Shown here piece after piece: positions 19,927 to 20,934 of a DNA stretch of 64,000 nucleotides. The stretch is from assembly GCA_030603365.1 (NCBI GenBank), contig JAUVXV010000001.1:32001-96000 (forward strand). Direction: 5' to 3'. This DNA comes from Candidatus Heimdallarchaeota archaeon. Lineage in GTDB: Archaea > Asgardarchaeota > Heimdallarchaeia > Heimdallarchaeales > Heimdallarchaeaceae. The notes beneath the pieces were generated by a model. It had not been told where the DNA came from. It did no database searches and saw only the letters and a program-made list of their open reading frames with translations. The translations under genes and the position numbers were made by a program. How positions within the stretch are numbered: position 1 is the first letter of the stretch; each line of letters opens with the position of its first letter.

Positions 19927-20003
19927 TGGTGATTGAACAGGGATTTGAACCTAAGCTCTTTTACTCCTGAAACAAAAATCGTACCAAACTAGACTACTAA
20001 ATC
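19927..20003 (-). pseudogene. Degenerate tRNA-like gene (77 nt, anticodon position CAG, encoded CCA)
   Basis: GATTTAG TA GTCT AGTTTGGT ACGAT T TTTGT TTCAGGA GTAAA AGAGC TTAGG TTCAAAT CCCTG TTCAATC A CCA: exact tRNA spacing but mismatches in T and acceptor stems. Confidence 0.75.
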
Positions 20004-20080
20004 TGCGTTACGCACGTTATGAAACTTGGTTAAACTTGCAAGAGGCTTTATAACCGTCGTTTAAGTGGATCCCCTCACGT

Positions 20081-20401
20081 GCGTTGAGGGGAAGGGATCA
20101 TGAGGATTATGAGGGAGTGGAGAAGAATCGGAGTTTGCACGTGCTCCAGCTTCTTTACTACTCTTGTGCATAGTGCGTCTTGGTTCTGTTGATACTAACT
20201 GAGGGGCAGTTGTTTGAACAACTGCGAACCAAGCTATAGGTGAGTGTTCACCCAGCACTACTCTCTTATTCACACTTTCATATGTAAACTCGTGAAAAAG
20301 ACCGTCCCATTAGGTGCACTAACTCATCCGTGCTTGTATCCGATTACACAGGTAGTAGAACGCTAATGGTAAGATTGAACAAGTTTTCACCCTTCAGTTG
20401 C
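20081..20401 (+). ncRNA. Unidentified ~320-nt structured RNA
   Basis: GC-elevated intergenic tract, upstream TTTATAA (20047-20053), at least seven nested helices, G-U pairs favouring the + strand, 5'/3' closing helix. Confidence 0.6.
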
Positions 20402-20505
20402 CTATGGTTTAATTCTCTCTAAATATTTTTTATGTTCTGCACCTATCTTGTAAATCCTTCCCTAAATATTTTATACCTTCAATTGGTGCTAAAACTCTAT
20501 TACTA

Positions 20506-20934
20506 TTGGAATCTAATAGTCAGGTTTATCTTGCTGCTCTCGTGAATATGTCCTTTGTCGCACAAGAAATTAGTAGATTAACTGCAAAGATTACTTCTGA
20601 TATAATACTTATTCCAGCTGGTTATCATGATGATGACGATAATTATACTCTTGAAGATTGGATAACAGCTGTGATTCTAGCTGAAAAGATTTCAAAAATG
20701 ACTTCATATCAAATAGAAGTCAAAGATGATTTTTGGAAGAGAACCCAAACAATTCTTAAGAATCAAACAAAAATTGAAGATCTTCTTAAAAACTCAAAAA
20801 ATGGCATATATTTACAGAAACTAGGATTTGAAAATGATGTTAATTTCTCTATTTCTTTAGATAAGATAAACAATTTTTTGAAAGTGAAAAAATGGCAGAA
20901 TTTCAATGGTTTAAGATGTGTAGAACTAGAATAA
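20506..20934 (+). pseudogene. 5'-truncated 2-phosphosulfolactate phosphatase (ComB)-like
   Basis: C-terminal half only (LAALVN, PAG, LED, NG..L..LGF..DV); frame closed by TAA at 20410-20412 so N-terminal motifs are missing. Confidence 0.55.

What the first reader, a model, noticed from the sequence alone, without database searches (positions are those of the whole stretch)
20047..20401. Unidentified ~320-nt highly structured RNA
Seen: an intergenic tract with clearly higher GC than its flanks, downstream of TTTATAA. Nested helices: 20081-20091/20390-20401 (closing), AGTGGAGAAG 20116-25/CTTCTTTACT 20150-59, TAGTGC 20171-76/GCACTA 20255-60, CTTGGTTC 20179-86/GAACCAAG 20226-33, GCAGTTGT 20206-13/ACAACTGC 20218-25, GTGAAAA 20292-98/TTTTCAC 20384-90 and CCATTAG 20307-13/CTAATGG 20363-69. 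G-U pairs favour the + strand. It is the size of RNase P or SRP RNA but lacks their universal motifs. Inference: a novel or very divergent ncRNA.
Basis: partly seen in the sequence, partly recalled or inferred. Interest (0 to 1): 0.72.

Follow-up and report, generated by a model that had tools for sequence, protein, structure and literature searches.

The report
Gene-less IS607 transposon with extended guide-RNA
The "new structured RNA" is one copy of a roughly 400-base, protein-less jumping element of a Heimdall-group (Asgard) archaeon; it keeps the ends, promoter and guide-RNA scaffold of an IS607/TnpB transposon, and carries in place of the lost genes a conserved folded RNA module that matches no described family.

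Summary
The fold is real, but this is not a stand-alone host ncRNA. Window 20010-20405 is a non-autonomous IS607 derivative, most likely read on the minus strand. Its right end (20010-20094) is 86-89% identical to three tnpA+tnpB elements in this genome and folds as the TnpB guide (omega) RNA scaffold, with nexus hairpin and 3' pseudoknot. It inserts at ACCGT and duplicates GT (ogt empty-site test). It keeps the tnpB promoter (TATA 20281-20288, mutated in this copy). Between promoter and scaffold lies a 168-nt module with compensatory changes and a pseudoknot; full-size elements lack it. Two module architectures share a 57-nt helix/19-nt-bulge core, found only in two genera of one Heimdall family. 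RNase P and SRP RNAs exist elsewhere, and Rfam has no match. Best reading: a self-promoted pre-guide RNA loaded in trans on TnpB, with the module as a protective or recruiting leader (inferred; no RNA data). This scan found the element before, including another copy in this genome (e1-5503744). Gene-less guide-RNA elements are known; the covarying leader is the open part.

The parts
20010..20405 (-). Non-autonomous IS607-family element (396 bp including both core dinucleotides), no protein gene
   Evidence: Same sharp right boundary in about 30 loci with unrelated flanks; left end shared with full tnpA+tnpB copies
20010..20094 (-). Right end = TnpB omega/reRNA core scaffold
   Evidence: 86-89% identical to right ends of three tnpA-tnpB copies in G000; 92% mean identity among type A mini-elements; P10 pair UA/UG/CG
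20070..20092 (-). Nexus hairpin; its 7-nt loop (20078-20084) pairs with the terminal 7 nt (20010-20016) as a pseudoknot
   Evidence: 99% of cells paired; both sides change together in L015 and L033
19990..20009 (-). Predicted guide (flanking host DNA; runs into the 5' end of the decayed tRNA)
   Evidence: Position 3' of the right end; inferred from TnpB systems, length not tested
20095..20262 (-). Conserved structured 5' module (type A): P1 closing the 5' end, hairpin P2, P3/P4 with 19-nt bulge, pseudoknot PK1, P5-P7. Its 3' few bases are a remnant of the tnpB 3' end
   Evidence: Covariation on 24 copies; z -4.5 here; model R1 finds no counterpart in 27 tnpB-bearing loci
20178..20234 (-). 57-nt core motif shared by both module types (P3/P4 helix plus 19-nt bulge with conserved CCCUCAG at 20199-20205)
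   Evidence: 43 sequences: 95.6% paired, 7 pairs with double changes, score 0.464 against 0.220 shuffled
20136..20170 (-). Pseudoknot PK1: 20166-20170 with 20136-20140
   Evidence: Pair types CG, UA and AU at one position; both arms change together in this copy and L012
20281..20299 (-). Retained tnpB promoter: TATA box 20281-20288 (TTTACATA here, TTTATATA in most copies) with conserved upstream tract
   Evidence: Same motif lies upstream of tnpB in full and tnpB-only elements; region 87% conserved against 49% for the spacer; TATA start 26 nt before the module start
20366..20405 (-). Left end with subterminal motif that is an imperfect inverted copy of a right-end motif (putative TnpA sites); core dinucleotide 20404-20405 (AT here, GT in most copies)
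20404..20408 (-). Target motif / predicted TAM (family ACCGT; ACCAT here)
   Evidence: 22 of 31 left junctions read ACCGT; ogt empty-site test keeps exactly 5 nt
19927..20003 (-). Decayed tRNA-Pro(CGG), now reading CAG, separated from its upstream region by the insertion 6 nt before it
   Evidence: Syntenic orthologs read CGG with intact stems

Best explanation
A gene-less IS607 derivative of a Heimdallarchaeia archaeon. SHOWN: it has the left and right ends of full IS607 elements (MerR-HTH serine recombinase TnpA plus an about 640-aa TnpB) of the same genome, sits at an ACCGT-type target with a duplicated GT core, occurs at many unrelated sites, and retains the tnpB promoter and the omega-RNA scaffold. 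A covarying 168-nt module replaces the tnpB ORF. INFERRED: TnpA from a full copy moves it in trans. The retained promoter makes one minus-strand transcript (module + scaffold + flank-derived guide). TnpB from a full copy binds the scaffold, perhaps trims the leader, and targets the empty ACCGT site, favouring retention of the mini-element. The module most likely acts as a compact 5' leader (first bases buried in P1, plus a pseudoknot) that keeps the untranslated precursor stable until TnpB is captured; this last step is about 45% likely. This copy is ageing: TATA and left core are mutated and P7 is weakened.
For: Multi-copy with fixed boundary. TnpA passes the IS607 equivalog cut-off, 167.5 against 110 bits. 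TnpB has a Cas12f1-like TNB domain and weak matches to Cas12f/TnpB structures. Empty-site test: 5 nt kept is colinear across the junction with six ogt orthologs. Promoter shared with tnpB and kept even in L033, which lost most of the module. Covariation: 62 cells with double changes against 21.5 shuffled, 0/500, slid controls at 35-41% pairing; the changes fall on several branches. G-U excess on the minus strand. The nexus/pseudoknot and core-dinucleotide architecture match the IS607 IStron paper (10.1101/2023.11.20.567912). Gene-less omega-RNA elements acting in trans are discussed in PMC10055086.
Against: No transcript evidence was obtained. The partner TnpB has His instead of Asp at RuvC-III (D433-E532-H617), so cutting is not assured. 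Full elements work without the module and L033 moved or persisted with most of it deleted, so the module is not essential. A few helices (P6, P7, PK1) show A-C mismatches on the minus strand. Related copies inflate covariation counts.
Confidence: 0.85

Rival explanations
1. The 5' module is an active element (conformational switch or processing ribozyme), not a passive leader. The conserved bulge CCCUCA repeats the 5' strand of the nexus stem and could displace it, keeping the scaffold inactive until TnpB binds or the leader is cut.
For: The 19-nt bulge has constant length and conserved first 9 nt in two otherwise different architectures. It is complementary to the invariant nexus 3' strand, and most variants are C-to-U, which keeps pairing as G-U.
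Against: The partner strand is invariant, so covariation cannot test it. No match to any ribozyme family in Rfam. A hammerhead-like reading on the plus strand lacks stem I and the invariant A15.1-U16.1 pair in type A.
Confidence: 0.2
2. Stand-alone host ncRNA on the plus strand, for example a divergent RNase P or SRP RNA.
For: Folds well on the plus strand (z -2.96); a TTTAAG hexamer upstream is conserved.
Against: RNase P (163.5 bits) and SRP (91.2 bits, full length) RNAs exist elsewhere. Syntenic relatives lack the element at this locus. It is multi-copy, with transposon ends, and G-U bias favours the minus strand.
Confidence: 0.04
3. A plain MITE whose hairpins matter only as DNA or are neutral; no functional RNA is made.
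For: No RNA data; this copy's TATA is mutated; the neighbouring spacer is unconstrained.
Against: G-U-tolerant, strand-biased compensatory changes and pseudoknots are RNA signatures. IS607 transposes as double-stranded DNA. The promoter is conserved.
Confidence: 0.1
4. IStron-like element: the module is a group I intron remnant that splices the element out of host transcripts.
For: IS607 IStrons exist and carry a structured RNA upstream of the omega RNA; many copies here sit inside genes.
Against: No Rfam intron match. The element ends in T, not omega-G. The module begins about 140 nt inside the left end, behind its own promoter. No P7-like catalytic core was seen.
Confidence: 0.03

Closest known systems
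IS607 family with TnpA(Ser), TnpB and omega RNA (CboIStron; Zedaveinyte et al., 10.1101/2023.11.20.567912)
   Same: MerR-HTH serine recombinase partner, duplicated core dinucleotide, short target motif at the left junction, right-end scaffold with nexus stem-loop and 3' pseudoknot
   Different: Core GT and target ACCGT instead of GG/TGGG; no genes in this copy; no group I intron; partner TnpB about 640 aa with D-E-H triad; ends share an imperfect subterminal inverted motif
PATE-like gene-less IS200/IS605 elements encoding omega RNAs used in trans (Meers et al., PMC10055086)
   Same: Protein-less, mobilised in trans, retain both ends and the omega RNA
   Different: IS607 (serine recombinase) rather than Y1 TnpA; own retained tnpB promoter; an added covarying 5' module in two architectures
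Archaeal sotRNAs / omega RNAs of IS1341-type tnpB (PMC4615843, PMC12558985; titles and abstracts only)
   Same: Archaeal non-coding RNAs at the 3' end of tnpB elements
   Different: Those overlap a tnpB gene; no Rfam match of any family to this element
RNase P RNA (RF00373) and archaeal SRP RNA (RF01857)
   Same: Similar size and multi-helix fold
   Different: No model match; true genes lie elsewhere in the genome

Membership tests
IS607 family (non-autonomous derivative) | Cognate MerR-HTH serine-recombinase TnpA in elements with the same ends | tested here: met
   NF033518 167.5 bits, cut-off 110; ends shared
IS607 family (non-autonomous derivative) | Core dinucleotide at both junctions, no longer target duplication | tested here: met
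   GT core, ogt empty site keeps 5 nt; this copy's left core reads AT
IS607 family (non-autonomous derivative) | Multiple insertions at unrelated sites with a target motif | tested here: met
   ACCGT in 22 of 31
IS607 family (non-autonomous derivative) | TnpA-dependent excision and integration | not testable with these tools
   Needs a transposition assay
TnpB omega/reRNA | Scaffold at the right end overlapping the tnpB 3' end, guide from the flank | tested here: met
   tnpB stop lies within the nexus region of full copies
TnpB omega/reRNA | Nexus stem-loop with pseudoknot to the scaffold 3' end | tested here: met
   (few but coupled changes)
TnpB omega/reRNA | Expressed and bound by TnpB, guiding DNA targeting | not testable with these tools
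   Needs RNA data and RIP-seq
TnpB omega/reRNA | Partner with canonical D-E-D RuvC triad | tested here: not met
   D-E-H in all six aligned homologs; His at RuvC-III is a described variant (PMC10691335)
RNase P RNA / SRP RNA | Match to RF00373 or RF01857; single conserved locus | tested here: not met
IStron (group I intron + IS) | Group I core at the left end and terminal omega-G | tested here: not met
   element ends in T
Hammerhead ribozyme | CUGANGA and GAAA core with stems I-III and A15.1-U16.1 | tested here: not met
   Plus strand reads CUGA-NN-GA and GAA(A/C); the fourth base covaries as a Watson-Crick pair; no stem I; no Rfam hit

The most novel reading that the evidence does not exclude
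The 57-nt helix/bulge core, kept in two different scaffolds only in gene-less copies, is a new functional RNA motif (switch, TnpB-recruiting aptamer or processing ribozyme). It would let parasitic mini-elements capture TnpB in trans from autonomous IS607 elements: an evolved RNA device of a transposon's parasite in Asgard archaea.
Probability: 0.2. Interest if true: 0.7.

Novelty: new variant of a known kind. Interest (0 to 1): 0.36.

Why it matters
It removes a candidate novel housekeeping ncRNA and reassigns it to a mobile element. It defines the boundaries, target motif (ACCGT), promoter and an 85-nt scaffold for a large D-E-H TnpB from Asgard archaea, enough to test activity directly. The open point is the leader. 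Gene-less omega-RNA elements are known, but I found no description of a covarying extra domain confined to them. If it stabilises the RNA or improves loading, it would show how non-autonomous elements compete for TnpB in trans and could be a portable part for guide-RNA design.

Tried and rejected
Rfam at E<=10 on the window region and on seven homologous loci gave only the tRNA and chance hits. The look-up of sequencing runs: no RNA holder listed, so no reads were laid; this is no evidence either way. The corrected pattern found nothing in viral contigs. Model R1 found no counterpart of the module in tnpB-bearing loci; short resemblances to the tnpB 5' and 3' ends were seen by eye only. Pairing of the bulge with left-end DNA (bridge-RNA-like) was considered and rejected by inspection: left-end bases do not follow the bulge. 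Hammerhead, kink-turn/C-D box, HEARO/IscB and group I/II readings were considered and not met. I first thought the element caused the comB truncation; the intergenic DNA next to the left end resembles the orthologous intergenic region, so that deletion appears separate. ARAGORN with introns at low threshold was uninformative noise. Single-sequence folding and RNAalifold energies did not decide the strand. The Altae-Tran 2021 paper was not held. A search for Heimdallarchaeota + transposon + TnpB found no paper.

Full report
Observation. The tract is GC-richer than its flanks and folds better than shuffles on either strand. Six of the seven helices pair as written; the closing helix is weak. Rfam gives no match except a degenerate tRNA at 19930-20003. 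Canonical RNase P RNA (163.5 bits, over cut-off) and a full-length SRP RNA (91.2 bits, just under the 96.5 cut-off) lie elsewhere in the genome.

It is a repeat. A search of the genome gave eight strong copies of the segment starting at window 20010, plus a 30-bp remnant. Among 61 genomes, 29 matched, up to ten listed copies each, nearly all in one family; some of these matches are only the neighbouring tRNA. Three copies in G000 continue as elements of about 2.7 kb with two minus-strand ORFs: a MerR-HTH serine recombinase that passes the IS607 transposase cut-off and a 640-650-aa protein with a Cas12f1-like TNB domain whose stop lies inside the shared segment. Close homologs of this TnpB come from Candidatus Heimdallarchaeota genomes such as AB_125. 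The window copy, C1:432503 and C15:200737 have the same right and left ends only 360-400 bp apart.

Boundaries and target. On the minus strand the right end closes in GT with unrelated flanks; the left junction reads ACCGT in 22 of 31 cases. One full copy interrupts an ogt gene: keeping five bases gives an in-frame junction colinear with six orthologs, so the host site is ACCGT and GT is duplicated. This is the geometry reported for IS607, where the core is GG and the target TGGG (10.1101/2023.11.20.567912). The window element is therefore 20010-20405, with a left core that reads AT. Syntenic relatives carry the flavin reductase, tRNA and comB genes without the element.

Promoter and strand. 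All mini-elements examined share a minus-strand TATA motif (20281-20288 here, one base off consensus). A homologous motif precedes tnpB in full and tnpB-only elements. Mean identity among type A copies is 92% (scaffold), 77% (module), 87% (promoter), 49% (spacer) and 78% (left end). In the shared motif G-U cells outnumber A-C cells 67 to 11 on the minus strand, though by columns only 7 to 5; one pair takes G-U, A-U and G-C forms. The type B consensus shows the same bias. Some 3' helices of type A show A-C cells, so the strand call rests on the combined evidence.

RNA anatomy. Scaffold (20094-20010): nexus hairpin whose loop pairs with the last seven bases, then nested stems with a UA/UG/CG pair. 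This is the described omega-RNA architecture. Module (20262-20095): P1 closes the 5' end, hairpin P2, coaxial P3/P4 with a 19-nt bulge, pseudoknot PK1, P5-P7. On 24 copies 95.6% of cells pair, 11 pairs have double changes (62 cells against 21.5 shuffled) and slid controls fall to 35-41%. Parsimony on a tree places these changes on several branches, mostly one to four events per pair; relatedness still inflates cell counts. A second architecture (type B) has different outer helices and a palindromic loop but the same 57-nt P3/P4/bulge core. Model R1 matched 18 of 71 genomes and model R2 7 of 151 phylum genomes, all in two genera of one family; it was not found in the others searched, with limited candidates scored per genome. 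R1 does not match the tnpB-bearing loci tested. In the loci inspected the motif sat upstream of an IS607 scaffold or at a contig end, with one exception (L154, in front of a tnpA remnant).

Mechanism. Shown: element identity, ends, target, retained promoter motif, conserved fold. From established knowledge: TnpA moves gene-less derivatives in trans, and their omega RNAs need TnpB from another element (PMC10055086); TnpB processes a longer precursor. Inferred: the retained promoter yields an RNA of about 270 nt whose leader protects the untranslated precursor or helps capture TnpB, which then targets the empty site. The TnpB triad is D433-E532-H617; His at RuvC-III is a described rearrangement presumed, not shown, to retain activity (PMC10691335), so binding without cutting remains possible. 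The conserved bulge copies the nexus 5' strand and could act as a switch; this cannot be tested by covariation.

Local effects. The insertion lies 6 nt upstream of a tRNA that is tRNA-Pro(CGG) in orthologs but is decayed and reads CAG here. Loss of its promoter contact is a plausible cause (inference).

Prior findings and verdict. I reached the IS200/605-or-IS607 reading before the first look-up and settled IS607 by my own tests. The scan had already reported the sister copy and others as gene-less IS607 mini-transposons; these are unchecked notes and not independent support. Verdict: new variant of a known kind; the covarying leader is the only unexplained part. Interest 0.36.

Noticed in passing
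window 19927-20003 (-): ARAGORN's tRNA-Leu(CAG) is a decayed tRNA-Pro(CGG): syntenic orthologs read CGG with intact stems. No other close copy was found in G000 by blastn.
   Followed up: yes
window 20470-20934 (+): 2-phosphosulfolactate phosphatase (comB) lacks its 5' about 118 codons compared with orthologs; the deletion appears separate from the insertion.
   Followed up: partly
L154 (G025:C21:23600-23760): A type B module, from about the predicted start to just before the scaffold, sits without promoter or left end in front of a tnpA remnant and tnpB: rearrangement, or a hint that the module can move separately.
   Followed up: partly
L138, L140, L155-L158, L163 (mostly genus g2): These scaffolds carry an extra hairpin inserted right after the nexus stem; L135 has a different insert at the same place, marking a tolerant position.
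   Followed up: no
L091 (G000:C16:51276-53990) and L092 (G000:C14:340819-343540): Full IS607 copies interrupt an ogt gene and a predicted secreted or membrane-protein gene; tnpA of L091 appears broken near its start.
   Followed up: partly
L100, L102, L106, L113: tnpB-only intermediates of about 2.13 kb (left end + promoter + tnpB + right end) outline the route from full element to mini-element.
   Followed up: partly
Type B module (L010, L024, L138-L170): Invariant palindromic loop CUAGCUA; type A pseudoknot arms also contain palindromes, so kissing-loop dimerisation is possible.
   Followed up: no
G000 contig ends C2, C3, C6, C7: Halves of near-identical type B copies lie at contig ends, suggesting recent spread and assembly breaks at these repeats.
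   Followed up: partly
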